The notes under the pieces are model-generated. The model searched no databases and was not told where the DNA came from. It worked only from the letters and a program-made list of their open reading frames with translations. Below are positions 17,587 through 63,400 of a DNA stretch of 64,000 nt, one piece after another (the first letter of the stretch is position 1; each line of letters begins with the position of its first letter). A program made the translations under genes and the position numbers. The stretch spans positions 405 through 64,404 of the forward strand of contig JAQUWT010000004.1 of assembly GCA_028692765.1 (NCBI GenBank), in the 5' to 3' direction. This DNA is from Patescibacteria group bacterium. GTDB taxonomy: Bacteria; Patescibacteriota; Patescibacteriia; Patescibacteriales; UBA12465.

Positions 17587-18792
17587 ATGGTCGGGCTAAT
17601 GAGAAAAACTAAGAAAAACAAGGAGATGCTTACTTTAGAGCAACAAATTTTCAAGCAGATAGACAAAGCGGAAAACATCCTGATTGTCTTTAACGCTGAC
17701 TGGAATGGCGACGCAATAGCCTCGGCCCTGGGCTTGTTTTTATACCTGAAAAAACTCGGCAAAAAAACGGAGATAGCTGCCTATTTAGCGGAGGGTGATG
17801 CGGGCGCCAATAAAGCCGCGGCCGCTTGGCGTTTTCTGCCCTCATTCGAAAAAATTCAAAGTTCTCTAAAAAACCTGCGTAAATTCATTGTCTCCTTAGA
17901 TATCAGCCAGGCTACTATTAACCAGATAAAATATACGGTCGACGGCCAGAAACTCAACTTCATTATTTCCCCGGAAAAGGGTTGGTTCAACCCCGAAGAT
18001 ATCAGCACCTCTTCCAGCGGTTTCAAGCATGATTTAGTCTTTGTTTTGGATGCCCCCGACTTTGAATCCCTGGGAGCGATTTACGACAATAATGTAGAAT
18101 TCTTCTATAAAACGACCGTCATTAATATCGACCATCAAGCGGATAATGAAGAATATGGCCAAATCAACTATCTTGACTTAAACGTCGTCTCCACCGCAGA
18201 AATGGTATATAGCCTGATAAAGCAACAATCATCGGAATCGATTGATGAGGATATCGCTACCTGCCTGCTCGCCGGTATTATTAGCAAGACCAAAAATTAT
18301 AAAAGCGCCAATCTGACGCCGCGCACCCTGCTCACAAGTTCAAAACTTATCGGACTGGGCGCTAGAAGAGAAGAAATAATTAACCAACTATACCGCTCCC
18401 GACCCTTAGCAGTCTTAAAATCTTGGGGCAAAATTTTAAATAATCTGCAGACGGAAGAACAGGGGATGATTGTTTGGTCGTGGCTGGAAGAAAAGGAAGA
18501 AGTTTCCGCCCTTGTCAGCGGACAATTGGATGTCCAAGAAATATTTGAAGAAATAAGCGCCAGCGTTACTGAGGCAAAATTTATTTTTATCGCCGGCGCC
18601 GACCCGCAATCAGAAGGTGTATTCATATTGATACAGGCCGCCAAAGGCCTATCGGCCACAGAGATGCTGCAAAATTACTCCCCGGCCGGCAATGCCCGCC
18701 TTGCCAGCGCCATCCTCCCTTTCAGCCGGGAAGAGTGGCAAAAAAAATTTATCCCCGCCCTGAAAGACAAGCTTGATAAAAACAAAATCTAA
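17587..18792 (+). CDS. DHH-family (NrnA-like) phosphoesterase homologue with degenerate metal motifs
   Basis: 401 aa; DHH/DHHA1 layout, but motif I reads NGDAIAS and motif III reads IDHQ instead of DHH. Confidence 0.7.
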   Translation: MVGLMRKTKKNKEMLTLEQQIFKQIDKAENILIVFNADWNGDAIASALGLFLYLKKLGKKTEIAAYLAEGDAGANKAAAAWRFLPSFEKIQSSLKNLRKFIVSLDISQATINQIKYTVDGQKLNFIISPEKGWFNPEDISTSSSGFKHDLVFVLDAPDFESLGAIYDNNVEFFYKTTVINIDHQADNEEYGQINYLDLNVVSTAEMVYSLIKQQSSESIDEDIATCLLAGIISKTKNYKSANLTPRTLLTSSKLIGLGARREEIINQLYRSRPLAVLKSWGKILNNLQTEEQGMIVWSWLEEKEEVSALVSGQLDVQEIFEEISASVTEAKFIFIAGADPQSEGVFILIQAAKGLSATEMLQNYSPAGNARLASAILPFSREEWQKKFIPALKDKLDKNKI

Positions 18793-18868: not shown

Positions 18869-18942
18869 GCGCCTATAGCTCAGTCGGTTAGAGCACAGCT
18901 CTTATAAAGCTGGGGTCGATGGTTCAAGTCCATCTAGGCGCA
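18869..18942 (+). tRNA. tRNA-Ile: tRNA-Ile (anticodon UAU)
   Basis: acceptor GCGCCTA/TAGGCGC, anticodon stem CAGCT/AGCTG with loop CTTATAA, T-loop TTCAAGT. Confidence 0.85.
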
Positions 18943-18988
18943 CATAATATTGCCAAGTTCGCACCTATACAATATAATAAGAAAATAA

Positions 18989-28736: not shown

Positions 28737-29741
28737 ATGATTATCTTAGTAAAATTAACACAATCTTTTATGTTTTCCTACCGCTTTTTTCTTAAGCAAG
28801 CTTGGAATATTACCAAGCGCTATCGCTATCTCTGGTTTTTCGGACTTTTTGCCGCTCTAACCGCCCTCGGCGGAGAATACCAGATTATCTCCCAAGGTTT
28901 AAATAACAATCCCGGAGGCAGTTTCGTCAGTGTCGGCGTCTTCATGCTCTATAATCTTTTCAACCCCAGTTTCTATGCCGGCATCGGCTCTCTAGCAGCC
29001 AGCAACCCGGCCGCTCTCTGGTCTTTGGTCACAGTTCTGCTCTTAGCCCTGGCCCTGATAATCATCATGGCGTATCTGGCAATCGTTTCTCAAGCCGCTT
29101 TAGTGGAACACAGCGCCCAGATAATATTAAACAAAAAGAAGAAAACCGGTTTAAGCATCCACGAAGGCCTTGTTTTCGGACGTAAGCATTTTTGGAACCT
29201 GCTCGGCCTTAATATCAGCGGCAATATCATTATTACTCTAAGTTTCTTAATTATCAGCCTTCCCCTTGTCTTTCTCTTGATTACAGATGCGGGCGTATTA
29301 GCTTTAGCCTACACCCTGCTGTTTGTTATTTTTGTTCCTATCTCTTTATCTATCGCTTTCATTATTAAATATGCTATCGCCGCCAGAGTCTTAGAAAATC
29401 TGAGTTTTGTCGCCGCGATGGAAAAGGGTTGGAAAATATTTCAAAATAACTGGCTGGTTAGCTTGGAAATGTCTCTGATTCTTTTCTTGATAAACTTTGC
29501 CGTCGGCATCGTGACTCTTGCCGCCATTTCACTTTTCTTCCTGCCTCTTCTATTCCTCTCCCTCCAATTATACCTGCCCCTGCTGACCGCTTTAAGCTTT
29601 ATCCTGACTCTTGCCGCCATGCTGGTAGCCGCCTCTATTCTCAACACTTTCCAGATTTCCACTTGGACGAGCCTTTATATCCACTTGCAAGAAAAGAAGG
29701 GGTTAAGCAAGCTGGAAAGAATCTTCCAGCGCAAACGCTAA
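28737..29741 (+). CDS. hypothetical polytopic membrane protein (334 aa)
   Basis: About 7 hydrophobic segments; no motif recognised. Confidence 0.55.
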   Translation: MIILVKLTQSFMFSYRFFLKQAWNITKRYRYLWFFGLFAALTALGGEYQIISQGLNNNPGGSFVSVGVFMLYNLFNPSFYAGIGSLAASNPAALWSLVTVLLLALALIIIMAYLAIVSQAALVEHSAQIILNKKKKTGLSIHEGLVFGRKHFWNLLGLNISGNIIITLSFLIISLPLVFLLITDAGVLALAYTLLFVIFVPISLSIAFIIKYAIAARVLENLSFVAAMEKGWKIFQNNWLVSLEMSLILFLINFAVGIVTLAAISLFFLPLLFLSLQLYLPLLTALSFILTLAAMLVAASILNTFQISTWTSLYIHLQEKKGLSKLERIFQRKR

Positions 29742-29825: not shown

Positions 29826-32800
29826 ATGAGCGACATCGCCTCGATAGAAAATTTGATTGACCCAGAGGCCGCTAAAGACGAAGACAGCGTCCAGGGTAAA
29901 TTTGCTAAAAAACAGCAGGAAATCAAATTAAAAGAAATAGAAAAACAAACCGAAGAAAATGCCGCCGCTATCGGCCTGCCTTATGTTAATCTCTTCGGCT
30001 TTCCTATCAGCCCGGATGCTTTAGTTCTAATTCCGGAAGCGCGATCGCGCGAACTTAACGCGGTCTGTTTTTTCTATGACGGCAAGAATATTCGCGTCGC
30101 CTGCCTGGAGCCGAACGAAGAAATCGCTTTGGAAATTCAACGCTTGAATGAACAATATTTTGCCGATGCCAAACTATACCTGGTTTCCCAAAACAGTCTT
30201 GACCAGGCTTTTGAAGCCTATAAAGCCGTGCCGAAAATCAAAAAATATGATTCTGGAGTGGAAATAAGCGAAGAAAGCCTGGAAAAATTCAAGCAAGACA
30301 TTGCCAGTTATAAAAATTTAAACGAGAAAATCAACGAAGTCAATGTCAGCGACATTGTCACTTTGTTGCTGGCAACAGCCATTAAGGTCGGTTCCAGCGA
30401 TATTCATATAGAAGCCGAAGAAAATGGAGTCGCTATCCGTTTCCGCATCGACGGCGTTCTTCAAGAAGCGGCGGTAATTGACCGGGAAAAGTGGAAAAAA
30501 ATAGCGACTCGCATGAAAATTCTGGCAAAGGTTAAAATTAATATTTCCAATAAACCGCAAGACGGACGCTACACCATCCACCTTAAAGACGGAAAAATCG
30601 ATGTTCGCTCATCCTTCCTCCCCACCGCCTACGGCGAAAGCGTGGTTATGCGCCTGCTCAATTCCAAAGCGGTTGCCTTGGAATTTGAAGGACTCGGCAT
30701 CCGCCCGGAAATACTGGAAAAATTAAGGAACGAAATCAGCAAGCCTAACGGCCTGATTCTCACCACCGGTCCGACCGGCTCCGGTAAAACTACGACCTTA
30801 TACGCAGTTTTAAATAAGCTTAATCAACCGGGAACCAAGATAGTAACCTTAGAAGACCCGATTGAATATCAGCTAGCCGGCATCAATCAAAGCCAAGTAG
30901 ACGCCAGCAAGGGCTATACTTTTTCCGACGGCCTGCGCTCAATCCTGCGCCAAGACCCCAATGTTATTATGGTCGGCGAAATCCGCGATTTAGAAACGGC
31001 GGAAATATCCGTGCAAGCATCTCTTACCGGACATTTAGTGCTCTCCACTCTGCACACCAATGATGCCGCCGGTGTTATTCCCCGCCTCATCGACATCGGA
31101 GTAAAGCCATATTTTCTCGTCCCTTCAATTAATGCCGTTATCGGCCAACGCCTAGTCAGAAAGTTATGCCCCTATTGCCGGGAGGAACACAATCTCTCCG
31201 CGGAGGAGGAAGAAAAAGTACAAAAAATATTAGCCGTCATTTCTCCGCGCGCCAATATCAATATTCCTTCCAAATTACCGACAATCTATAAGGCCGGTGG
31301 CGGATGCGAAAAATGCAACCACCTGGGATACAAGGGGCGCATCGGTATTTATGAAATATTTACCATGGACGATAACTTAAAACAGCTGACCATTGATAAA
31401 GCACCTTCCTTTAAAATCCTCCAACAGGCCATCGAAAACGGCATGATTACCATGCTCCAAGACGGTGTCTTAAAAGCCATGGATGGTATTACTTCCTTAG
31501 AAGAAGTCTATCGCGTCATTGGTAATTTTGATTATGTCGACGAGCTTTATGATATCGTCATTTCTCAAACTATCGGCCGAGGCGTTAAGATAACAGCCGA
31601 AGAATACGCCCGCGGCCAAGCCCTCACCAAGCACGTCGGCCAAGCCATTAATCTCAGCGACATCCCTTCTAAGGAATTGATTAAAATGATTATGAGCATG
31701 GCCAGTGCCAGCGATGCCGGCGATGTCCATATTGAACCGGAAGAAAACGGAGTAGCGGTTCGTTTCCGCATTGATGGCGTCATGCACGATATTCTGGATT
31801 TGCCTAAAACCAGCTATCTGCCGATTCTTTCGGAAGTAAAAATCTTGGCCGGCTTCGCCACTAACGTCAAGCGAGCGACTTTAGACGGCCGTTTCAGCGT
31901 CTACCTGCCTGAAAAGAAATTTGATTGCCGTCTATCAATCATTTCCGGCGGTTACGGCGAAACGATTGTTATCCGCCTGCTGATTAATTCAGCCGCCTCT
32001 TTAGACTTAGAGAAATTGGGCATCACTTCTGTCGCCAAGAAAGAATTAGACAAAGCGATGACAAAAACAAAGGGCATCATCATCACCACCGGTCCGACCG
32101 GTTCCGGTAAAACCACGACTCTTTACGGTATTCTTAATAAACTCAACAAATCGGATGTTAAAATAATTACCATTGAAGACCCGATTGAATATCAGCTCCC
32201 GGGCATCATGCAAACGCAGATAGACAACGAACATGGCTACACCTTTGCGGCGGCGATGCGCTCTTTGCTCCGGCAGAACCCCAACATCATGATGATTGGC
32301 GAAATTCGCGACGAAGAAACCGCAAAAATCGCCATTGAAGCGGCAATGACCGGACACCTTGTTCTCTCCACTATCCACGCTAACAGCGCTGCCGGTGCCA
32401 TTTCACGTTTTGCCGGCTTGGGCGTGGATAAATCGTCACTGGCCAATGCCATTGAGTTTTCCATCGGCCAGCGCCTGGCCAGAAGAATCTGCCCTCATTG
32501 CAAAATTGAAGATACGCCCAGCCCGGATTTATTGGCGCAAGCTAAATCGATTTTAGCGGGCATAAAAAATAAAGATATAGAAATTCCTAAAACCCTTAAA
32601 TTCTATAAAGGCGCCGGCTGCGAACAATGTAACCACCTGGGCTATAAAGGAAGAGTCGGCTTATATGAAACCATCCCGTCTTCAAATGAAATCCGCAAGC
32701 TCATTCAAAAAGAAGAAATGACCGATTATGACATCGAGCAGGAAGCGATTAATGAAGGCACAGTCAATATATCCCAAGACGGCATCCTCAAAGCTCTAGC

Positions 32801-32840
32801 CGGAGAAACCAGCTTAGAAGAAGTTTTCCGCGTAATTTAA
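29826..32840 (+). CDS. tandem-duplicated PilB/GspE-family secretion ATPase (two complete ATPase modules in one polypeptide)
   Basis: 1004 aa; T2SSE N-terminal domain, then two modules. Each has Walker A GPTGSGKTT (aa 315-323 and 756-764), IEDPIEYQL, GEIRD, LTGHLVLSTLH/MTGHLVLSTIH and a CxxC...CxxC motif. Confidence 0.9.
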   Translation: MSDIASIENLIDPEAAKDEDSVQGKFAKKQQEIKLKEIEKQTEENAAAIGLPYVNLFGFPISPDALVLIPEARSRELNAVCFFYDGKNIRVACLEPNEEIALEIQRLNEQYFADAKLYLVSQNSLDQAFEAYKAVPKIKKYDSGVEISEESLEKFKQDIASYKNLNEKINEVNVSDIVTLLLATAIKVGSSDIHIEAEENGVAIRFRIDGVLQEAAVIDREKWKKIATRMKILAKVKINISNKPQDGRYTIHLKDGKIDVRSSFLPTAYGESVVMRLLNSKAVALEFEGLGIRPEILEKLRNEISKPNGLILTTGPTGSGKTTTLYAVLNKLNQPGTKIVTLEDPIEYQLAGINQSQVDASKGYTFSDGLRSILRQDPNVIMVGEIRDLETAEISVQASLTGHLVLSTLHTNDAAGVIPRLIDIGVKPYFLVPSINAVIGQRLVRKLCPYCREEHNLSAEEEEKVQKILAVISPRANINIPSKLPTIYKAGGGCEKCNHLGYKGRIGIYEIFTMDDNLKQLTIDKAPSFKILQQAIENGMITMLQDGVLKAMDGITSLEEVYRVIGNFDYVDELYDIVISQTIGRGVKITAEEYARGQALTKHVGQAINLSDIPSKELIKMIMSMASASDAGDVHIEPEENGVAVRFRIDGVMHDILDLPKTSYLPILSEVKILAGFATNVKRATLDGRFSVYLPEKKFDCRLSIISGGYGETIVIRLLINSAASLDLEKLGITSVAKKELDKAMTKTKGIIITTGPTGSGKTTTLYGILNKLNKSDVKIITIEDPIEYQLPGIMQTQIDNEHGYTFAAAMRSLLRQNPNIMMIGEIRDEETAKIAIEAAMTGHLVLSTIHANSAAGAISRFAGLGVDKSSLANAIEFSIGQRLARRICPHCKIEDTPSPDLLAQAKSILAGIKNKDIEIPKTLKFYKGAGCEQCNHLGYKGRVGLYETIPSSNEIRKLIQKEEMTDYDIEQEAINEGTVNISQDGILKALAGETSLEEVFRVI

Positions 32841-32897: not shown

Positions 32898-33473
32898 ATG
32901 ATTAACGCCGCTTTTATCACTAAATTAAAAAATGACTACCGCCAACGCGAACAAGAGCGCCGACAGATAATCAGCCGCTCCAACGACGTGCTGTTCCAAG
33001 CTAAAAAAACCATCTTTGCCCTCCAGCGTGAAGAGCTGGCTCTAGCTGAAGAAAAGTTAAAAAGCATGGAGGCGGTTCTGAAAAAAATGGAAAAAGACTT
33101 CAGTCCTAACCGCATCAGAGAAGAGGGCGCTTACCATGCCGCCGCTGAAGAATATGTTGAGGCCAAGACTCTGGCGGCAATCGTATCCGGTAAAAAAATT
33201 AATGCCGTTACCGGCTTGCATCTCGGTTATGACAGCTATCTCGGCGGACTCTGCGATTTAATCGGCGAAATGGTACGCTTAGCCACTAATCGAGCCGCCA
33301 AAGGAAAATATGAAAGCGTGGCAGAACTGAAAGAAAAAGCGGAAGAGATAATGAATAGCCTGCTTGATTTTGACTTAACCGGCTATCTCCGTACCAAATA
33401 CGATCAAGCGCGCGGCCATTTACGCAAATTAGAACAAATGGCTTATGAAATCCGCTTGCGCAAAGACAAATAA
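32898..33473 (+). CDS. translin/TRAX-family protein (C3PO-like nuclease homologue)
   Basis: 191 aa, all-helical. AAEEYVEAKTL resembles TRAX QEYVEA. SYLGGLCDLIGEMVRLATN...LRTKYD...KLEQMAYEIRLR resembles TRAX DYLLGVADLTGELMR and the translin C-terminus. Confidence 0.7.
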   Translation: MINAAFITKLKNDYRQREQERRQIISRSNDVLFQAKKTIFALQREELALAEEKLKSMEAVLKKMEKDFSPNRIREEGAYHAAAEEYVEAKTLAAIVSGKKINAVTGLHLGYDSYLGGLCDLIGEMVRLATNRAAKGKYESVAELKEKAEEIMNSLLDFDLTGYLRTKYDQARGHLRKLEQMAYEIRLRKDK

Positions 33474-33973
33474 TGACTATGCTCATCGCCATCGCCGCTG
33501 ATTTGCACGACAATCTCGCTAACTGGCATAAATTCAAAGAATATTCAAAAAAGCAGGGTATTAATACCCTGCTTTTCTGCGGCGATTTATGCAACAGCCA
33601 AACTCTAAAAAAAATAAATTCCGAATGGCCGGGAAAGATATTCCTAATTGCCGGCAATCAGGAACTGTATGACCAAGACAAAGTTAATAAGCTATCAAAC
33701 ATCAATTTTTTGGGACGCTATGGAAAGGTAAAAATAAATAATTTAAATATAGGTTTGATTCATGAACCTGAATATAAAGAAAGAACCATCGGAGAAAATC
33801 AAGAACTTAATTATTTATTTTATGGGCATACTCATAAACCTTGGCTAAGCCGAGACCGCGGCGTCATAATTGCTAATCCGGGAACGCTTGGCGGGGTTTT
33901 TTATAAAGCTAGTTTTGCCGTTCTTGACACCGATACCGGCAAATTGGAGCTAAAAATTTTAGAAAATATTTAA
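33473..33973 (+). CDS. YfcE/MJ0936-type metallophosphoesterase
   Basis: 166 aa; motifs AADLHDN, CGDL, AGNQE, GHTH; the start overlaps the translin stop (TAATG). Confidence 0.8.
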   Translation: MTMLIAIAADLHDNLANWHKFKEYSKKQGINTLLFCGDLCNSQTLKKINSEWPGKIFLIAGNQELYDQDKVNKLSNINFLGRYGKVKINNLNIGLIHEPEYKERTIGENQELNYLFYGHTHKPWLSRDRGVIIANPGTLGGVFYKASFAVLDTDTGKLELKILENI

Positions 33974-58256: not shown

Positions 58257-58342
58257 AATATAGGAAAAACAAAGAAAGTCAAGCGATAGTTTGGCTTGCC
58301 AAAAATATAGCCCTTACTTATAATAAAGCTGTCAGTTACAGG

Positions 58343-58414
58343 CCTCCATAGTTTAATGGATAGAACGCAAGCTTCCGGAGCTTGTAGTAGGGGTTCGATT
58401 CCCTTTGGGGGCGC
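58343..58414 (+). tRNA. tRNA-Arg: tRNA-Arg (anticodon CCG)
   Basis: acceptor GCCTCCA/TGGGGGC, anticodon stem CAAGC/GCTTG with loop TTCCGGA, T-loop TTCGATT. Confidence 0.85.
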
Positions 58415-58504
58415 TAAGATAAGACAAAGATAAGTCTTTACAAGCTAAAATCTTTTTGCTAAGATTTTGGCTGTACCGCTAAAAGCGGTATTATATTAAT
58501 AATT

Positions 58505-58578
58505 GGATCGGTAGCTCAGTTGGTTAGAGCGCTGCCCTGTCACGGCAGAGGTCGCGGGTTCGAGTCCCGTCCGTTCCG
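58505..58578 (+). tRNA. tRNA-Asp: tRNA-Asp (anticodon GUC)
   Basis: anticodon stem CTGCC/GGCAG with loop CTGTCAC, T-arm GCGGG-TTCGAGT-CCCGT; one T-T mismatch in the acceptor stem. Confidence 0.85.
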
Positions 58579-58583
58579 CAATT

Positions 58584-58609
58584 AAAAAACACCTTTACAG
58601 GTGTTTTTA
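58584..58609 (+). terminator. terminator after tRNA-Asp
   Basis: ACACCT-ttac-AGGTGT followed by TTTTT. Confidence 0.65.
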
Positions 58610-58679
58610 TTAATGGTTAATAAATAAAATTTGCCTTTTTCAAAAAAATCAGTAAAAATAAGTCTATAAATAATTAAAA

Positions 58680-58766
58680 GGAGAGGTGCCAGAGTGGTCT
58701 AATGGAACGGTCTTGAAAACCGTCGCTGGTGAAAGCCGGCCCAGGGTTCGAATCCCTGCCTCTCCG
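58680..58766 (+). tRNA. tRNA-Ser: tRNA-Ser (anticodon UGA), long variable arm
   Basis: acceptor GGAGAGG/CCTCTCC, anticodon loop CTTGAAA, long variable arm, T-loop TTCGAAT. Confidence 0.9.
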
Positions 58767-58794
58767 CAACATCGTGCTAGCACGAGGTACTAAG

Positions 58795-58824
58795 AAATAG
58801 AGCTTATTTAGGCTCTATTTTTTG
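58795..58824 (+). terminator. terminator after tRNA-Ser
   Basis: AATAGAGC-ttatttag-GCTCTATT followed by TTTTT. Confidence 0.65.
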
Positions 58825-58842
58825 TTATATCAAAAATTAACC

Positions 58843-58871
58843 TTTACTTTTTGGCCATTTTAAGGTATATT
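58843..58871 (+). promoter_or_regulatory. promoter of the structured leader
   Basis: TTTACT (58843-58848), 17 nt, TATATT (58866-58871); the predicted TSS coincides with the first base of helix P1 (58878). Confidence 0.4.
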
Positions 58872-58877
58872 TTAAAT

Positions 58878-59030
58878 GCGAAACCATAAATAATCCTGCG
58901 AAGTACGCGCTAACTATGTTGGCCGCCTTGGCTTATTTGCATACAGGAACGGGCACTCCGACCGCATGCAAATAGGCGTCTTCGCAGACACCATTTGTGG
59001 TTTCGCAACCAGGTCGGGTGTCCGTTTTTA
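58878..59030 (+). promoter_or_regulatory. candidate riboswitch-like / attenuator leader upstream of the zinc-ribbon genes (unassigned family)
   Basis: Nested helices: P1 58878-58891/58994-59007, P2 58895-58907/58976-58987, P3 58933-58943/58965-58975. A competing 14-bp helix pairs 58949-58963 with 59012-59025 and is followed by UUUUUAUUUUU. All wobble pairs are G-U on the plus strand. Confidence 0.45.
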
Positions 59031-59043
59031 TTTTTACTAATAT

Positions 59044-59271
59044 ATGAATTTACAAGAGATAAAACAATGTCCTTTTTGTGCCGAAGCTATTAAGGCTGAA
59101 GCTATTAAATGCAAACATTGTGGGGCGGATTTGAAACATAAACCCAATGATTTTAAGTTATTAACAAAAGAAAAATCAAAAGAAGGGTTATTTTTAAAGA
59201 CGATGAATTGCGGTTGCGCAGTTATCTTTTTTATAGCCTTTTTGGTCATTACCCTGGCCATTATAAACTAA
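59044..59271 (+). CDS. zinc-ribbon protein with C-terminal TM anchor (75 aa)
   Basis: CPFCAEAIKAEAIKCKHCG zinc ribbon, hydrophobic C-terminus. Confidence 0.6.
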   Translation: MNLQEIKQCPFCAEAIKAEAIKCKHCGADLKHKPNDFKLLTKEKSKEGLFLKTMNCGCAVIFFIAFLVITLAIIN

Positions 59272-59281
59272 TTAAAATTTT

Positions 59282-60454
59282 ATGAAAAAATGTCCTTTTT
59301 GCGCAGAAGAGGTTCTTGATGAAGCTATAGTTTGCAAACATTGCAAAAGTAGTTTATTAGAAAAAGAGAAATGCTCCTCAAAAAATGAGTTAAAAAATTT
59401 TAGAATAAATCCTAACGGGAAAAATAAAAAAATGTTAAAGATTATTAAAATTATCATTTTAATAATTATTGGTATTTGGTTATGGTATTTAGCATTACCG
59501 GCATTAGCGATATGGTATATTTGGAAAAAGGGCAAATTTAATAAAAAAAAGAAATACATTTTTAGCGGTATTGTTTTAGTTCTTTCAATTGTAATTTGGT
59601 CTAGCTTGATAAAGACTTCAGAAGAAAATAACATGGTTCCAAAATTAATTATTATTGAACCACAGGATAATCAAAGTATCCAGTCTAGCAGTATAACAAT
59701 TAAAGGTAGTGTTTTCCCGAAAAAATCTAAAATAAGGCTTGGGGATTCAGTAATTGAAAAAGATTCTGATGGTAATTTTTCTTACGAAGTTGCACTTGCG
59801 GACGAAAAAAATGTTATATCTGTTATTGCGGAAAATGGGAAGAAAAATGATCAAGCATCCTTAAATATAAATCGTATTTTTACCGAGGCGGAATTAGAAC
59901 AGAGGAAGATTGATGAAGCTAGAAAAAAAGAGCAAGAAGCTATGATTGAGAATGAGGCGGCGCAGAAAAAAATTGAATCAATTGAAAAGGAAATTGATTC
60001 AATTGGTAAATTCGATAATACAAAATATCGAGGCACTCCAGAAAACTTAGCCTTTGAAGTGGCTTTATTTAAAGTATGGGCTATCGAGATACAGGAGGCA
60101 AAAAATGATAGCAACCAAGAAGTAAAAAATATTGGCCAACAACTAGAAAACAAAGTTAAACAATTGCAGATCAAAGAATTTCCCTTAATGAGAAAAGAAT
60201 ACGGGAGTTTGATTGGAAAGAAATTATGGGAAAATGATATAGATGTAAATGTTAGTGGTCAATCATATAATACTATAGAATTTATAGGCGGTATATTTGC
60301 TGCAAATAAAAATATCAAAGAAATCCATGCGACTCTGATAGAAATGCTAGAAATGTTAAGATTTGATAGAGCAAATTATAAATGGTATGAGTATGATTCC
60401 AGTTATTCTTATTTTAAGATTGAGAGTCATGCTGATAGTGATATAGTCCAATAA
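59282..60454 (+). CDS. zinc-ribbon membrane protein with Ig-like and coiled-coil extracytoplasmic region (390 aa)
   Basis: CPFCAEEVLDEAIVCKHCKS (paralogous to the upstream gene), 2-3 TM, beta-rich segment IIIEPQDNQSIQSSSITIKGSV..., Glu/Lys coiled coil. Confidence 0.65.
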   Translation: MKKCPFCAEEVLDEAIVCKHCKSSLLEKEKCSSKNELKNFRINPNGKNKKMLKIIKIIILIIIGIWLWYLALPALAIWYIWKKGKFNKKKKYIFSGIVLVLSIVIWSSLIKTSEENNMVPKLIIIEPQDNQSIQSSSITIKGSVFPKKSKIRLGDSVIEKDSDGNFSYEVALADEKNVISVIAENGKKNDQASLNINRIFTEAELEQRKIDEARKKEQEAMIENEAAQKKIESIEKEIDSIGKFDNTKYRGTPENLAFEVALFKVWAIEIQEAKNDSNQEVKNIGQQLENKVKQLQIKEFPLMRKEYGSLIGKKLWENDIDVNVSGQSYNTIEFIGGIFAANKNIKEIHATLIEMLEMLRFDRANYKWYEYDSSYSYFKIESHADSDIVQ

Positions 60455-60520
60455 CGATATAAAAATAAAATTGAATATTATTGGACGCTATCCAAAAGTG
60501 AAGATATTTTAGATATATTA

Positions 60521-61804
60521 TTATTTTATTTTTATTACTTTATTACTTAATAAAATCTTCCCATTTAAGCACATCAGCAGCTCTCGCTTCTCCTGATCAT
60601 CGCCTTCCTTTAATAAAAATTTAATATAGTTTTTAACATCGACGTCACTCACGTCGATGTTTTGATTTCTGCCAGTAGCCATCATTTGGAATTTCTTGAA
60701 TCTTTTTATCTCTCCCTCAATCTTGTCTTGAACTGGTAACTTTTTAAAATCCAATTTATTAATTTGTTTTTGTAATTGCTTAATTAAATCTTCTTCGCTG
60801 ATATATCCGCACTTACAATTTTTATCCTTTGCCTTGGTGCAACCATAATAAATATGACGGTTATAACCGCCATTTTTTAATTTCTTAAACTTTTCGGTGG
60901 CTGATATTCCTGAACCGCACAATCCGCAGGTCATAATTTTAGTAAAAGCGAATTCAATGTTTTCTCGTCTGACCAGTTGCGAGTTTTTCATTTGATCCTG
61001 AACTAAATCAAATAATTCTTTAGTTATTAATGGTTCGTGCTTTCCTTGATACCAATTGCCACTGCCTCGCGGGTATTCAAATGGGCCATAATAGAAGGTG
61101 TTTTCTAATAAACGATAGATATTGCCAAGACTTAAATGTTTTTTGCCCAGTGCCGTTCGAAAGTTTAAATCAAATCTTAACCAATTATATAGTTTTCTGC
61201 CTGACCATTTTTCATAAGCGACTTTTTCAAACATTTGTCTAATCACGTGGCCTCTATCTGGATCGATTAAGCATTGTCCTTTGTGATCAACTCGCTTTTC
61301 TTTAAAATAACCAGTTGGCGGACAAGTCGGCCATAAACCCCTTTCACATCTAGCTCTTAAGCCTCTTTTTACATTAATACCCCTATTGTCATTTTCGAGT
61401 TTTGCTTGAGAACACAAAATCATAAGCAAAAACTTTTCATTTGGTGAGTTGCTAAATGTCTGACCAAAGGTGCGAATGCTCATTAATTTTTTCTCATCCA
61501 TTAAATCAACTAGTGATCCTAAGTCGCCAGCGTTTCTTGATAATCTATCAGGAGCCCAAGTTAAAATAGCGTTAAATTTTTCTTCTGCTATATCTTTTAG
61601 TAATTCCTTAAAAATGGGACGATTGCCAGAATCTTTAGCGGATTTTGATTCTCGTCTAATATCGACGATTTCTAGATTTTCTCGTTCGGCAATTTGAAGC
61701 ATCTCTTTAACCTGAGAATCAATGGACTGAACCTGTCTTTCATCTGATTCAGTGCTTTTTCTAGCATACAGGCAATACTTTAAGGGAGCGTCTAATGGAG
61801 GCAT
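60521..61804 (-). CDS. large serine recombinase (phage integrase type)
   Basis: 427 aa; resolvase catalytic N-terminus YARKSTESDERQVQSIDSQ, recombinase domain, Cys-rich zinc ribbon CGLCGS...GCTKAKDKNCKCG. Confidence 0.88.
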   Translation of the reverse strand: MPPLDAPLKYCLYARKSTESDERQVQSIDSQVKEMLQIAERENLEIVDIRRESKSAKDSGNRPIFKELLKDIAEEKFNAILTWAPDRLSRNAGDLGSLVDLMDEKKLMSIRTFGQTFSNSPNEKFLLMILCSQAKLENDNRGINVKRGLRARCERGLWPTCPPTGYFKEKRVDHKGQCLIDPDRGHVIRQMFEKVAYEKWSGRKLYNWLRFDLNFRTALGKKHLSLGNIYRLLENTFYYGPFEYPRGSGNWYQGKHEPLITKELFDLVQDQMKNSQLVRRENIEFAFTKIMTCGLCGSGISATEKFKKLKNGGYNRHIYYGCTKAKDKNCKCGYISEEDLIKQLQKQINKLDFKKLPVQDKIEGEIKRFKKFQMMATGRNQNIDVSDVDVKNYIKFLLKEGDDQEKRELLMCLNGKILLSNKVIKIK

Positions 61805-61927
61805 ATGGTTTAATTTTAATTATTAGTTAAATCTACGCCTCCATTAATGACACACTTTTAAGCTTTTGCTAAGCAGCTAGCTGTTGGCAACTTGTCGATA
61901 ACTTCCCCTTTAATATTAAAGGAAATA

Positions 61928-63400
61928 TTACCAATATAAGGTATAAACTCTAGGTGGATTAGGGCGTTTATCCAGTAAACTGTGGGCTAAATTAACAAAA
62001 GCATCAGCCAGATCATCATGTTTTTCTACTCCAAAATGAACTATTTGTTGAATTAACTCCTCAGCTCCTTTTCTTGGAAATAGTATTTGCCCGTTTTTAA
62101 TCATATTAGCTGTCAGAACAAGTCTAGTCCGCTTATCTTGGCTTCCTGGATGCGTAGTCATGACGTTACCAATCCCCTCAACTTTTAACTGTTGAGGAAG
62201 AGCTTTTTGATAAGCGACATCTTCTACAACTAATTTAACAAGGTCATAATCTTTTTTATAACTCTCATACATAACTTTGCAAGTATCGATTGTTTCAGGG
62301 AAGTTAAGTCGTCTGTTGATTATCTTGGGTAAGATATAAATGTTATAACCTGTTTTAGTTTCAAATAGTAACCCAGGAACCATAGCTGTATAATCAGCGA
62401 CAGAACTTTGAGAGATAGCAGGATCAATACCGATTCTAACTTCAAGATGTGATTTATATCCGCCGTACATATCCATCCTTTCTGGAATCTCATCATAATA
62501 ATTAATCCATTCAGGGTAAATAGCTTGGTCATCGCTAGGAACAATATTTAACAGATATTCTTGTTGCCAAGTAATCTCATTGCCAACTTTTTTCCGCTCT
62601 GCTTCAATATCTTTATCGGTTGGGTATTTACCAGGCCACAAGCAAATACCTTTTTTATTGATTAACGGGTAGAAAAGGAAATTGCCATCAATAATTTCTT
62701 TTTCCTTTTCTTCTTTTAATCTCATAAGCAAAGAATCTTCATGTAAGAGGTTTCCCACTATAACCAGTCTTGTGTCCTTATCGCCAGCAGGGATTACTTC
62801 GCCTTTAAGCCATTGATAGGTTTTATTGCGACCATCTCTAGTTTTGGTCGAGCTGATATCTTCTACATCATCACAGATAATCAAATCTGGTCGGCTTTCA
62901 TAATGTCTAATACCTCTAATACTTTGATCAACGGAGGCGACAGTAATTCTGGCATCGGTATTTGAGAAGACAATTGACTGTGCGCCCCATTCATCGCTGT
63001 TTTCTCGAAATGGACCAAGGTCTTTTTTAAGTAAGTCGTTATCTTCTAATTCTCGACGTAAATTCATCATATGCTGTTTAGCCTGGGCTTGGGTTTGACA
63101 GAAGATAACAACAAACTTTTTCTGTTGTTTGCCAAGGATTGCCCAAATCGGATAAGCGGCTGTGATAATGGTTGATTTGCCTGAGCCTCTAAAAGCGACT
63201 ACAAATAAATTCTCTTTATGACTTGATTCAATCAGGGAAATTATGTTTTTCTGAAAATCCGCTGTTTCATATTTAACGTAATGAGCGTAATAGAAGTGAA
63301 AGAAATAAGAAAAACTTTCTCTAGTTATCGCCGTTCTTATTTTCTTGTCCTGGGTCATTTGCTCCACCATCTCTTGTGGAATCATCTTGTTTACTATCAT
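61928..63400 (-). CDS. phage terminase large subunit
   Basis: 490 aa; Walker A-like AFRGSGKST, Walker B LIICDDVED, C-terminal RNase-H-like nuclease half; an internal ATG (for example 63358) may be the true start. Confidence 0.85.
   Translation of the reverse strand: MIVNKMIPQEMVEQMTQDKKIRTAITRESFSYFFHFYYAHYVKYETADFQKNIISLIESSHKENLFVVAFRGSGKSTIITAAYPIWAILGKQQKKFVVIFCQTQAQAKQHMMNLRRELEDNDLLKKDLGPFRENSDEWGAQSIVFSNTDARITVASVDQSIRGIRHYESRPDLIICDDVEDISSTKTRDGRNKTYQWLKGEVIPAGDKDTRLVIVGNLLHEDSLLMRLKEEKEKEIIDGNFLFYPLINKKGICLWPGKYPTDKDIEAERKKVGNEITWQQEYLLNIVPSDDQAIYPEWINYYDEIPERMDMYGGYKSHLEVRIGIDPAISQSSVADYTAMVPGLLFETKTGYNIYILPKIINRRLNFPETIDTCKVMYESYKKDYDLVKLVVEDVAYQKALPQQLKVEGIGNVMTTHPGSQDKRTRLVLTANMIKNGQILFPRKGAEELIQQIVHFGVEKHDDLADAFVNLAHSLLDKRPNPPRVYTLYW

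What the first reader, a model, noticed from the sequence alone, without database searches (positions are those of the whole stretch)
29826..32840. Covalent tandem duplication of a PilB/GspE secretion ATPase (1004 aa)
After one T2SSE N-terminal domain the ORF contains two complete ATPase modules exactly 441 aa apart. Their Walker A motifs GPTGSGKTT are at aa 315 and 756. Each module has its own N2-like region (DIHIEAEENGVAIRFRIDGV / DVHIEPEENGVAVRFRIDGV), Asp box, Walker B, His box and tetracysteine motif (CPYC...CEKC / CPHC...CEQC). Even the antisense pseudo-ORFs of the two halves resemble each other. These ATPases normally act as homohexamers of single-module subunits. A fused dimer would assemble as a trimer of dimers with built-in asymmetry, or combine two specialised functions in one chain. 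No pilC/pilM/pilin genes flank it.
Basis: partly seen in the sequence, partly recalled or inferred. Interest (0 to 1): 0.6.

Follow-up and report, generated by a model that had tools for sequence, protein, structure and literature searches.

The report
Two-motor PilB ATPase in Patescibacteria
A real 1004-residue gene, conserved in many Parcubacteria-type (CPR) genomes, joins two complete and apparently active PilB-type pilus-motor ATPase modules in one chain. No paper I could search describes it, and it would give a natural "tethered dimer" for testing how these normally six-identical-subunit motors work.

Summary
ORF 29826-32840 (+) is uninterrupted and encodes 1004 aa: one N-terminal N1/MshEN-type domain, then two full PilB/GspE-type modules (N2D + CTD). 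The Walker A motifs are 441 aa apart and the modules are 45% identical.

It is not an assembly artefact.
- The halves are only about 58% identical at the DNA level.
- The same ~1000-aa architecture occurs in more than 200 protein clusters from independent Patescibacteria assemblies (Parcubacteria group, Falkowbacteria, Moranbacteria, Paceibacterota).

All catalytic, arginine-finger, pore-Glu and zinc-Cys residues are essentially invariant in both modules across 224 homologues. Only two positions differ consistently between the modules.

The gene is an orphan among housekeeping genes (often TsaE/DHH upstream, RuvB downstream), not part of a pilus operon. A single-module orthologue sits at the same locus in a related lineage. 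The fusion therefore arose by in-frame internal duplication of about aa 122-565.

My best mechanistic reading, which is inferred, is that three chains form a pseudo-hexameric PilB-like ring acting on a PilC platform encoded elsewhere. AlphaFold2 tests of module packing were inconclusive.

Databases label it only "GspE/PulE family". Verdict: a new variant of a known kind, of moderate to high interest.

The parts
29826..32840 (+). Whole gene: 1004-aa two-module PilB/GspE-type ATPase (stop codon 32838-32840)
   Evidence: Intact ORF. Pfam MshEN plus 2 x T2SSE. More than 200 full-length homologues of about 1000 aa.
29826..30245 (+). N-terminal domain (aa 1-140): long helix plus alpha/beta N1 (GSPII/MshEN_C-type) domain, present once only
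   Evidence: Pfam PF05157 at aa 50-133, E = 8e-7. The AF2 secondary structure fits. No c-di-GMP-binding RLG...Q motif here or in 222 homologues.
30246..30350 (+). N1-N2 linker of module 1 (aa 141-175)
   Evidence: Low pLDDT at 137-146. Aligns with aa 586-616 of the inter-module segment.
30351..30695 (+). N2D of module 1 (aa 176-290), with R205/R207/D209, QDGR 245-248, R261 and R276
   Evidence: Residues invariant in 224 homologues. R261/R276 correspond to the phosphate-sensing R271/R286 of Geobacter PilB (offset of 10 residues inferred from the His-box numbering; paper 10.1101/082750).
30696..31520 (+). CTD (ATPase core) of module 1 (aa 291-565): Walker A 315-322, Asp box E343/E347, Walker B E385, pore Glu E390, His box H403/H410, Cys 448/451/494/497
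   Evidence: Foldseek TM 0.89-0.92 to Geobacter PilB 5tsg/5tsh.
30768..30791 (+). Walker A of module 1 (GPTGSGKT, aa 315-322)
   Evidence: The Lys is conserved in 223 of 224 homologues.
31521..31673 (+). Inter-module segment (aa 566-616): conserved GNFDYVxELYDIVISQTIGRG motif plus a variable stretch. It is a relic of the last N1 helix and the N1-N2 linker.
   Evidence: 12 invariant positions in aa 566-589 of the 30-sequence alignment. hhalign to aa ~122-175, probability 95%. Low pLDDT at 577-584.
31674..32018 (+). N2D of module 2 (aa 617-731), with R646/R648/D650, DGR 687-689, R702 and R717
32019..32837 (+). CTD (ATPase core) of module 2 (aa 732-1004): Walker A 756-763, E784/E788, E826, pore Glu E831, H844/H851, Cys 889/892/932/935. 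N818 replaces the Asp found in module 1.
   Evidence: Its best PDB matches are PilF/PilB/GspE at 288-310 bits; PilT scores only about 100 bits.
32091..32114 (+). Walker A of module 2 (GPTGSGKT, aa 756-763)
   Evidence: The Lys is conserved in 224 of 224 homologues.
28737..29741 (+). Context only: 334-aa polytopic membrane protein with no family match, directly upstream. This neighbour is conserved only in the window's own clade.
   Evidence: No Pfam or NCBIfam hit. The same neighbour lies 4 bp upstream in L001/L002, at 75% ATPase identity. It is absent from this position in more distant relatives.
17587..18792 (+). Context only: DHH-family (NrnA-like) gene. Its orthologue lies immediately upstream of the two-module ATPase in most other lineages; here it is 11 kb away.
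   Evidence: Pfam DHH. 31% identity, E = 3e-53, to the DHH neighbour in L083. Synteny.

Best explanation
**Shown**
- This is a genuine, vertically conserved gene of Parcubacteria-type Patescibacteria.
- It encodes one N1 domain followed by two complete PilB/GspE-type motor modules, each an N2D plus a RecA-like CTD with a zinc-binding tetracysteine.
- It arose by an in-frame tandem duplication of about 1.3 kb (aa ~122-565). The parent was an 'orphan' single-module PilB-like gene sitting among housekeeping genes (TsaE / DHH upstream, RuvB downstream), not inside a pilus operon.
- Both modules keep every residue needed for ATP binding, Mg coordination, hydrolysis, inter-subunit phosphate sensing and pore function. 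They have diverged almost neutrally, with only two consistent differences.
- In at least one lineage the modules have been partly re-homogenised by intragenic gene conversion.

**Inferred**
- Three chains assemble into one pseudo-hexameric ring in which modules 1 and 2 alternate.
- The 50-residue inter-module segment tethers neighbouring modules. Every second joint of the 'six beads on a string' ring of N2D/CTD packing units is therefore covalent.
- All six sites hydrolyse ATP in a PilB-like cycle.
- The ring acts on a PilC-type platform encoded elsewhere to polymerise type IV pilins (pilus or competence-pilus assembly).
For: **Real and conserved**
- The ORF is intact.
- The best 120 clusters in each of two searches are all 984-1030 aa apart from two truncated entries (932 and 823 aa), at 42-94% identity. 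They come from NCBI, JGI, ENA and Logan assemblies named Parcubacteria group, Falkowbacteria, Moranbacteria and Patescibacteria. Cluster members add a Paceibacterota name.
- There are 13 full-length two-module representatives of this family at the 50% clustering level.

**PilB type**
- Module 1 scores 340-366 bits and module 2 scores 288-310 bits to PilB/PilF/GspE structures. PilT scores about 100-119 bits.
- Foldseek gives TM 0.89-0.92 to Geobacter PilB.

**Both modules look competent** (224 proteins)
- Walker A Lys is present in 223/224 (module 1) and 224/224 (module 2).
- Asp-box Glu residues, Walker B Glu, both His-box His residues, R261/R276 equivalents, R445 and T401 are conserved at about 100%. 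The four Cys are conserved in at least 223 of 224.
- The pore Glu is conserved at 94-96% in both modules.
- Only G369/A810 and D377/N818 differ consistently.

**Origin**
- The inter-module segment aligns to the end of N1 plus the N1-N2 linker.
- Single-module P0139 (560 aa, 46% identical to the first half) lies behind the orthologous DHH and TsaE genes.
- The same synteny holds for two-module genes in L005 and L083-L087 (DHH upstream), L088 and L089 (TsaE upstream) and L091 (RuvB downstream).

**Quasi-equivalent modules**
- P0128 sits in the same synteny, but its modules are 73% identical. Third-position identity is 57% overall and up to 77% centrally, against a 41-43% baseline. A module-1-like sequence is therefore tolerated at position 2.

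**Ring logic**
- In solved PilB, the N2D of one chain and the CTD of the next form a packing unit. Six units joined by flexible linkers make the hexamer (paper 10.1101/082750).
- A PilC (T2SSF) gene lies about 6 kb away in two relatives.
Against: - The oligomeric state was not tested. The full-length AF2 model has pTM 0.45. The CTD1-linker-N2D2 construct has pTM 0.61 with discordant models, so no confident cis packing of the modules was obtained.
- No pilin, PilC, PilM/N/O or PilT gene occurs in the 64-kb window. None lies in the ~20 kb around most relatives, so the link to a pilus machine is by homology only.
- I could not check whole genomes for a second, conventional PilB or for PilC.
- Solved PilB hexamers are C2-symmetric. 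An alternating 1-2-1-2-1-2 ring can be at most C3 in sequence, so the cycle may differ from PilB's.
- The D377N change in module 2 (88% of proteins) lies next to the Walker B region. Its effect on catalysis is unknown.
- The 224 proteins are not independent samples; most are close to the window's clade.
Confidence: 0.55

Rival explanations
1. Double-ring hexamer. Six chains assemble so that the module-1 domains form one ring and the module-2 domains a second, stacked ring (12 ATPase sites). This is how other tandem P-loop ATPases such as KaiC, ClpB, p97 and NSF are built.
For: - Every well-known natural tandem ring ATPase stacks its two modules (established knowledge).
- The inter-module segment is about 50 residues long with low-confidence, flexible stretches. 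It could span between tiers.
- AF2 gave no confident side-by-side packing.
Against: - PilB-family rings are built from inter-chain N2D/CTD packing units. Both modules keep the arginines that sense the neighbour's nucleotide, which a single alternating ring satisfies directly.
- In a stack only one ring could face PilC at the membrane. The pore Glu is nevertheless equally conserved in both modules, and only two positions differ consistently.
- Gene conversion between the modules is tolerated. That argues against tier-specific specialisation.
Confidence: 0.2
2. One active and one regulatory module, as in F1 alpha3-beta3. A pseudo-hexamer forms, but only one module type hydrolyses ATP. The other binds nucleotide and acts as a structural or allosteric partner.
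For: - Module 2 evolves faster: mean pairwise identity is 42% against 48% for module 1, and column entropy is higher in CTD-2.
- Module 2 carries a near-fixed Asp-to-Asn change (D377/N818) in the RQDP segment before Walker B.
- The independent planctomycete-like fusion P0135 has lost the Walker A Lys in module 1. Degeneration of one module does happen in such fusions.
Against: The Walker A Lys, both Asp-box Glu residues, the catalytic Glu, both His-box His residues and the arginine fingers are invariant in both modules of the Patescibacteria family. Non-catalytic partners normally lose the catalytic Glu.
Confidence: 0.12
3. Not a pilus motor. The orphan PilB-like lineage, single- and double-module alike, has been recruited to another job in these reduced genomes, for example DNA uptake/translocation or another membrane-transport task. 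Its steady neighbours are nucleic-acid enzymes.
For: - The gene is never seen in a pilus operon.
- Recurrent neighbours are TsaE, a DHH/NrnA-like phosphoesterase, RuvB, PolA, RuvC/YebC, and in the window a translin-family protein and a UvrA-like protein.
Against: - The neighbours are core housekeeping genes whose order is generally conserved in these small genomes. The adjacency is broken in the window lineage, where DHH is 11 kb away, so no obligate operon exists.
- The residues PilB uses at its pore and subunit interfaces are retained.
- T4P genes are known to be scattered over several loci in other bacteria (PMC6668835).
- PilC lies about 6 kb away in two relatives.
Confidence: 0.1
4. Assembly or annotation artefact. 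Two adjacent paralogous genes were read as one because of a missed stop or frameshift, or a collapsed or duplicated repeat was created during assembly.
For: None found.
Against: - The frame is continuous.
- The halves are only 58% identical in DNA, too divergent for repeat mis-assembly.
- The same ~1000-aa length recurs in more than 200 clusters from four independent data sources and many samples.
- The junction itself is conserved, with 12 invariant residues in aa 566-589.
Confidence: 0.01

Closest known systems
[quoted passage not shown] Geobacter metallireducens PilB 5TSG/5TSH, Thermus PilF 5OIU/6F8L, Vibrio GspE 4KSS)
   Same: - Each module has the same N2D + CTD fold (TM about 0.9).
- Each has Walker A, Asp box, Walker B, His box, arginine fingers, pore Glu and a tetracysteine zinc site.
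- The N-terminal N1 (GSPII/MshEN-type) domain is shared.
   Different: - There are two motor modules per chain instead of one.
- Any ring must be built from half as many chains, or have two tiers.
- The gene is an orphan outside pilus/T2SS operons.
- Thermus PilF multiplies the N-terminal GSPII domains, not the ATPase.
Single-module orphan PilB-like proteins of Patescibacteria at the TsaE/DHH locus (e.g. P0139, 560 aa)
   Same: - Same genomic position.
- Same N1 + N2D + CTD order.
- 46% identity to the first half of the window protein.
   Different: They lack the second module. They represent the presumed ancestral state, or a secondary loss.
MshE-type c-di-GMP-regulated ATPases (MshEN domain, PMC5013675)
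   Same: The Pfam MshEN/T2SSE_N model matches aa 50-133.
   Different: The 53-residue c-di-GMP-binding double motif RLGxx(L/V/I)(L/V/I)xxG...LxxxLxxQ is absent, even in its relaxed form, here and in 222 homologues.
Natural tandem ring ATPases: KaiC, ClpB/Hsp104, p97/NSF (stacked double rings); F1 alpha3-beta3 and Pex1/Pex6 (alternating pseudo-hexamers). Also engineered covalently linked ClpX subunits.
   Same: Two homologous P-loop modules per functional unit. The covalent or obligate pairing creates built-in positional identity in a six-site ring.
   Different: - These belong to different ATPase families (AAA+ or F1/RecA-type, not PilT-like secretion ATPases).
- No such arrangement turned up for the PilB/PilT family in the literature I could search.
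- The comparison rests on general knowledge, not on a test run here.
CpaF, the bifunctional Tad pilus motor (PMC6920026; 10.64898/2026.02.24.707734)
   Same: It is a secretion-superfamily ATPase that departs from the one-motor-one-direction rule.
   Different: - CpaF is a single-module protein.
- The present protein shows no sign that one module is PilT- or CpaF-like. Both are PilB-type.
P0135: T2SSF-fragment + 2 x T2SSE fusion from a non-Patescibacteria contig (L090)
   Same: Two tandem T2SSE modules in one chain.
   Different: - It is an independent event: its two modules are each other's closest relatives (100/100 bootstrap).
- It has a different N-terminus, carrying a platform-protein (T2SSF) fragment.
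- Its genomic context differs (ECF sigma factor, sulfatase, MoxR/BatA).
- Module 1 has lost the Walker A Lys.

Membership tests
PilT-like secretion ATPase superfamily (Pfam T2SSE, PF00437) | Significant match to the T2SSE profile above the gathering score | tested here: met
   773 bits against a cut-off of 24.9, in two stretches.
PilT-like secretion ATPase superfamily (Pfam T2SSE, PF00437) | Walker A, Asp box, Walker B (catalytic Glu) and His box | tested here: met
   Present in both modules of the window protein. Invariant in 224 homologues.
PilB/GspE extension-ATPase subfamily | Closer to PilB/GspE/PilF than to PilT/PilU/VirB11-type members | tested here: met
   PDB phmmer: 288-366 bits to PilB/PilF/GspE against 94-119 bits to PilT, for each module. 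The NCBIfam ranking agrees.
PilB/GspE extension-ATPase subfamily | Tetracysteine zinc-binding motif in the CTD | tested here: met
   CPYC...CEKC and CPHC...CEQC. Each Cys is conserved in at least 223 of 224 homologues in both modules.
PilB/GspE extension-ATPase subfamily | NCBIfam equivalog score for PilB (TIGR02538) or GspE (TIGR02533) | tested here: inconclusive
   Whole-protein scores of 883 and 917 exceed the cut-offs of 676 and 630. They are sums over two modules, so a single module (roughly half) would fall below both.
PilB/GspE extension-ATPase subfamily | One ATPase module per chain, assembling as a homohexamer | tested here: not met
   There are two modules per chain. The oligomeric state itself cannot be tested with these tools; the AF2 runs were inconclusive.
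PilB/GspE extension-ATPase subfamily | Encoded with, or functionally tied to, PilC/GspF platform, PilM/N/O and pilins | tested here: not met
   None in the 64-kb window. A PilC gene lies about 6 kb away in two relatives only. Genome-wide presence could not be checked.
MshE-type c-di-GMP receptor ATPases | Tandem 24-residue c-di-GMP-binding motifs in the N-terminal domain | tested here: not met
   The strict and relaxed motifs from PMC5013675 are absent in the query and in 0 of 222 two-module homologues.
PilT/PilU retraction ATPases | PilT-family profile match at equivalog/subfamily level; no N1 domain and no tetracysteine | tested here: not met
   The TIGR01420 score of 332 is again a two-module sum, only just above its cut-off of 319. 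The N1 domain and the tetracysteine are present.
Stacked double-ring tandem ATPases (KaiC / type II AAA+) | Two ATPase modules per chain forming two stacked hexameric rings | not testable with these tools
   Only the tandem arrangement is shown. There is no sequence relationship beyond the P-loop, and the quaternary structure is unknown.

The most novel reading that the evidence does not exclude
The tandem protein forms a three-chain pseudo-hexamer whose sequence symmetry is C3. Every characterised PilB works as a C2-symmetric homohexamer gripping a PilC dimer. This motor would then have to run a different mechanochemical cycle, for example the alternating open/closed C3 state seen so far only in PilT crystals. 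Alternatively, it could couple to its platform in a new way. It may be the only pilus-type motor in these minimal cells, serving assembly and perhaps also retraction or DNA uptake. Either way it would be the first natural covalently asymmetric member of the PilT-like ATPase superfamily.
Probability: 0.2. Interest if true: 0.8.

Novelty: new variant of a known kind. Interest (0 to 1): 0.6.

Why it matters
**A tool for an open question.** How ATP turnover travels around PilB/PilT/GspE rings is still argued from crystal and cryo-EM snapshots of identical subunits. The open points are the direction of turnover, how many sites fire, and whether C2 or C3 states are on-pathway. A natural chain holding two distinguishable but fully equipped modules lets one mutate every second site only (E385Q versus E826Q, or the arginine fingers and pore Glu of one module). 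For other ring ATPases this had to be engineered with artificial covalent linkages.

**Relevance to Patescibacteria.** The gene is strongly conserved: at least 71% identity across more than 100 clusters at the 90% level. It sits in a housekeeping context in ultrasmall, host-dependent bacteria. In the cultivated relatives studied so far, type IV pili mediate host association. The gene is therefore likely to be important for their lifestyle.

**Evolutionary record.** The family documents a clean path: an orphan single-module gene, then an internal duplication, then divergence, then occasional intragenic gene conversion.

Tried and rejected
**Searches and tests that led nowhere**
- **Genome census.** It returned mostly ordinary PilB genes from many phyla. 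Only one of the 80 loci (L005, Moraniibacteriota) carried a two-module ORF.
- **Module packing.** AF2 of the full chain (pTM 0.45) and of a CTD1-linker-N2D2 construct (pTM 0.61, five discordant models) were both inconclusive. Model coordinates and PAE are not available.

**Ideas considered and dropped**
- **The upstream membrane protein as a PilC substitute.** Its adjacency holds only in the window's own clade, and it matches no family.
- **A functional DHH-ATPase pair, possibly linked to c-di-GMP or nanoRNA.** The adjacency is widespread but broken in the window. The N-terminal domain lacks the c-di-GMP motif.
- **Independent origins for P0127 and P0128.** Their modules are sister sequences, but both genes sit in the family's synteny. 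P0128 shows raised synonymous-site identity, so gene conversion explains it better. P0127 remains ambiguous because its third-position identity is at baseline.
- **Longer single-module relatives (700-860 aa) as decayed tandems.** Their C-terminal tails are coiled-coil or low-complexity, with no trace of a module.

**Limits of what was done**
- **Module phylogeny.** Only neighbour-joining was available and deep nodes are unresolved. The 12 main module-2 sequences group without any module 1 in 74 of 100 bootstraps. Module-1 sequences are interspersed with single-module proteins. One origin with later losses is favoured, but recurrent duplication cannot be excluded.
- **Literature.** Seven full-text searches and five papers gave no description of tandem PilB/GspE ATPases. 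Subscription-only papers are not covered.


Full report
**1.

- The window carries one uninterrupted ORF at 29826-32840 on the + strand, encoding 1004 aa.
- GPTGSGKT occurs at aa 315 and 756. CxxC pairs occur at 448/494 and 889/932.
- BLASTP of the first part against the second aligns aa 144-565 with 586-1004 at 45% identity, E = 2e-129.
- Pfam reports one MshEN/T2SSE_N domain (aa 50-133) and two T2SSE stretches, 773 bits in total.
- The resemblance between the antisense frames is real (45% identity). The module-1 antisense frame is broken by stops, so this is a by-product of the duplication.

**2. It is not an artefact**

- Codon-aligned, the two modules are 47% identical in protein, 58% in DNA and 41% at third positions. 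That is far too diverged for a collapsed or duplicated repeat.
- A search of 5.8 billion clustered proteins returned 120 best clusters at 71-94% identity. All but one truncated entry (932 aa) are 1001-1007 aa with 100% coverage. They come from NCBI, JGI, ENA and Logan assemblies.
- A profile search returned a further set at 42-70% identity. All are 984-1030 aa except one truncated 823-aa entry.
- Source names include Parcubacteria group bacterium ADurb.Bin115 (94% identical), Candidatus Falkowbacteria, Candidatus Moranbacteria, Parcubacteria GW2011_GWA2_47_8, Candidatus Paceibacterota and 'Patescibacteria group'. One GTDB representative is Candidatus Moraniibacteriota.
- An exhaustive HMMER pass over 1.84 billion 50%-identity representatives lists 13 full-length two-module representatives of this family (P0121-P0133; 978-1018 aa; 40-63% identity to the window protein by that search). 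Below them come ordinary single-module proteins of about 550 aa.
- The junction itself is conserved. Twelve positions between aa 566 and 589 are invariant in a 30-sequence alignment.

**3. Anatomy**

- aa 1-140: a long helix plus an alpha/beta N1 domain.
- aa 141-175: linker.
- aa 176-290: N2D-1.
- aa 291-565: CTD-1.
- aa 566-616: inter-module segment.
- aa 617-731: N2D-2.
- aa 732-1004: CTD-2.
- These boundaries come from the AF2 secondary structure, the HMM envelopes and the alignments.
- Profile-profile alignment matches the inter-module segment to the end of the N1 domain plus the N1-N2 linker, aa ~122-175 (hhalign probability 95%). The duplicated unit was therefore about aa 122-565. No foreign linker was added.
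- The N-terminal domain lacks the c-di-GMP-binding double motif that defines functional MshEN domains (PMC5013675). The strict and relaxed patterns are absent here and in 0 of 222 homologues.

**4. Both modules are PilB-type and look catalytically complete**

- Against all PDB sequences, module 1 scores 340-366 bits and module 2 scores 288-310 bits to PilB, PilF and GspE. PilT reaches about 94-119 bits.
- The AF2 model (mean pLDDT 77) superposes on Geobacter PilB chains with target TM 0.89-0.92.
- I aligned both modules of 224 two-module proteins to one module HMM, with these results:
  - Walker A Lys: 223/224 in module 1 and 224/224 in module 2.
  - Asp-box E343 and E347 (the Mg ligand, E357 in Geobacter PilB) and Walker B Glu E385: about 100% in both.
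  - His-box H403/H410, T401, and R261/R276 (the phosphate-sensing R271/R286 of Geobacter PilB): 100% in both. R445 is conserved in at least 223 of 224.
  - The four Cys: at least 223 of 224 in both.
  - Pore Glu (E390/E831, Geobacter E400): 94-96% in both.
- The residue roles are those given in 10.1101/082750. I inferred the correspondence to Geobacter numbering from the constant offset of 10 residues at the His box.
- Only two columns carry a consistent module-specific difference: G369 versus A810, and D377 versus N818.
- Module 2 evolves somewhat faster: mean pairwise identity is 42% against 48%, and column entropy is higher in CTD-2.
- These 224 proteins are related to one another and skewed to the window's clade. 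The counts show constraint, not independent replication.
- NCBIfam's PilB and GspE equivalog cut-offs are passed only because two modules add up.

**5. Genomic setting and origin**

- The window is a housekeeping stretch of a small genome. It carries many aminoacyl-tRNA synthetases, topoisomerase I, Der, Pth, TsaD, YchF, GlmS and 12 tRNAs.
- It contains no PilC, PilM, PilT or pilin-like gene.
- In the window's clade the neighbours are a family-less membrane protein upstream, then translin-like and metallophosphoesterase genes downstream. L001/L002 show the same order at 75% ATPase identity.
- In more distant members the recurring order is [PolA]-TsaE(-) / DHH(+) -> two-module ATPase -> (0-2 small genes) -> RuvB -> bPH protein:
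  - DHH upstream: L005, L083, L084, L085, L086, L087.
  - TsaE directly upstream: L088, L089.
  - RuvB downstream: L091.
- The window's own DHH orthologue (31% identity, E = 3e-53) lies 11 kb away, so the pairing is not obligate.
- A PilC (T2SSF) gene lies about 6 kb away on the other strand, among clpP, tig and nusA, in L083 and L086.
- The key finding is P0139. It is a single-module protein of 560 aa (MshEN + one T2SSE), 46% identical to the first half of the query. It occupies the same slot behind orthologous TsaE and DHH genes.
- The tandem gene therefore descends from an already orphan single-module PilB-like gene, by internal duplication at that locus.

**6. Evolution after the duplication**

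- In a neighbour-joining tree, the module-2 sequences of the 12 main representatives group together without any module 1 in 74 of 100 bootstraps. Module-1 sequences are interspersed with single-module proteins.
- This fits one old duplication with faster module-2 evolution and some secondary losses. The deep nodes are unresolved.
- Three proteins have modules that are each other's closest relatives: P0128 (100/100), P0127 (89/100) and P0135 (100/100).
  - P0128 and P0127 sit in the family's synteny.
  - P0128 has 73% inter-module identity. Its third-position identity is 57% overall and 72-77% centrally, against a 41-43% baseline. This indicates recent intragenic gene conversion.
  - P0127 is ambiguous.
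  - P0135 comes from a non-Patescibacteria context (ECF sigma factor, sulfatase, MoxR/BatA). It carries an N-terminal T2SSF fragment and has lost the Walker A Lys of module 1. It is an independent fusion.

**7. Mechanism**

- *Shown:* two complete PilB-type motor modules in one conserved chain, nearly equivalent at every known functional residue.
- *Inferred:*
  - Solved PilB hexamers are rings of six packing units. Each unit is made of the N2D of one chain and the CTD of the next, joined by flexible linkers.
  - Three tandem chains would give the same six-unit ring with alternating modules. Three of the joints would carry an extra covalent tether.
  - Three findings fit quasi-equivalent positions in one ring better than two specialised tiers:
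    - the arginines that read the neighbour's nucleotide are kept in both modules;
    - the pore Glu is kept in both modules;
    - gene conversion between modules is tolerated.
- Such a ring is at most C3 in sequence, whereas PilB structures are C2. The cycle may be altered.
- I could not test packing. Full-length AF2 gave pTM 0.45. A CTD1-linker-N2D2 construct gave pTM 0.61 with discordant models, about what one confident domain alone would give.
- The rivals are a stacked double ring, an active/regulatory pair, and a non-pilus function. They are listed with their evidence in the rival-explanations section.

**8. Comparison and novelty**

- Each module meets the sequence and fold criteria of the PilB/GspE subfamily. 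The protein as a whole fails the one-module-per-chain feature and the operon-context feature.
- It is not an MshE-type c-di-GMP receptor, and it is not PilT-like.
- Databases call it 'GspE/PulE family protein', 'type IV pilus assembly protein PilB' or 'General secretory pathway protein E'.
- Full-text searches turned up no mention of a tandem PilB/GspE ATPase. I also read the CPR protein-family survey, the type IV filament superfamily phylogeny, the archaeal T4P census and the Saccharibacteria T4P study.
- In cultivated Saccharibacteria, the PilB genes described are each named as one assembly ATPase and lie within pilus loci.
- I rate it a new variant of a known kind: real, widespread in one bacterial radiation, unrecognised, and useful for experiments.

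**9. Verdict**

- Observation: confirmed.
- Interpretation: supported as to what the gene is. Quaternary structure and cellular role remain open.
- Interest: 0.6.

Noticed in passing
window 58342-63400: GC drops to 33-38% at this end of the window. A tRNA-Arg/Asp/Ser cluster (58342-58767) is followed by a serine recombinase (60521-61804, -) and a terminase-large-subunit-like gene (61928-63400, -). This is probably an integrated phage or mobile element at a tRNA locus.
   Followed up: no
window 18869-18943: A tRNA-Ile with anticodon TAT. This is an uncommon bacterial way of reading AUA; the usual route is a lysidine-modified CAU tRNA.
   Followed up: no
window 32898-33473: A translin-family protein (Pfam E = 6e-19) lies directly downstream of the ATPase, followed by an overlapping metallophosphoesterase gene (33473-33973). 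The same order holds in L001/L002. Translin is mainly a eukaryotic/archaeal nucleic-acid-binding family.
   Followed up: partly
window 28737-29741: A 334-aa polytopic membrane protein with no Pfam or NCBIfam match lies directly upstream of the ATPase (4 bp upstream in L001). It is conserved in that position only within the window's clade.
   Followed up: partly
L090 8001-11144 (protein P0135): An independent fusion in a non-Patescibacteria contig. A T2SSF (platform-protein) fragment and two T2SSE modules sit in one 1047-aa chain, and module 1 has Thr in place of the Walker A Lys. It lies next to an ECF sigma/anti-sigma pair.
   Followed up: partly
proteins P0154, P0155, P0157, P0159, P0160, P0164, P0183, P0196, P0249: Single-module PilB-like relatives of 710-860 aa carry C-terminal tails of 150-300 aa that are coiled-coil or low-complexity (Lys/Glu-rich). 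The tails contain no trace of a second ATPase module.
   Followed up: partly
L089 3226-6213 (protein P0128): The two ATPase modules of this orthologue are 73% identical, with raised third-codon-position identity (up to 77% in the central part). This is evidence of recent intragenic gene conversion between the tandem modules.
   Followed up: yes
L083 3204-4427 and L086 1988-3208: A stand-alone PilC (T2SSF) gene is embedded among clpP, tig, nusA and pnp, about 6 kb from the two-module ATPase on the opposite strand. Pilus-machine genes appear to be scattered singly among housekeeping genes in these genomes.
   Followed up: no
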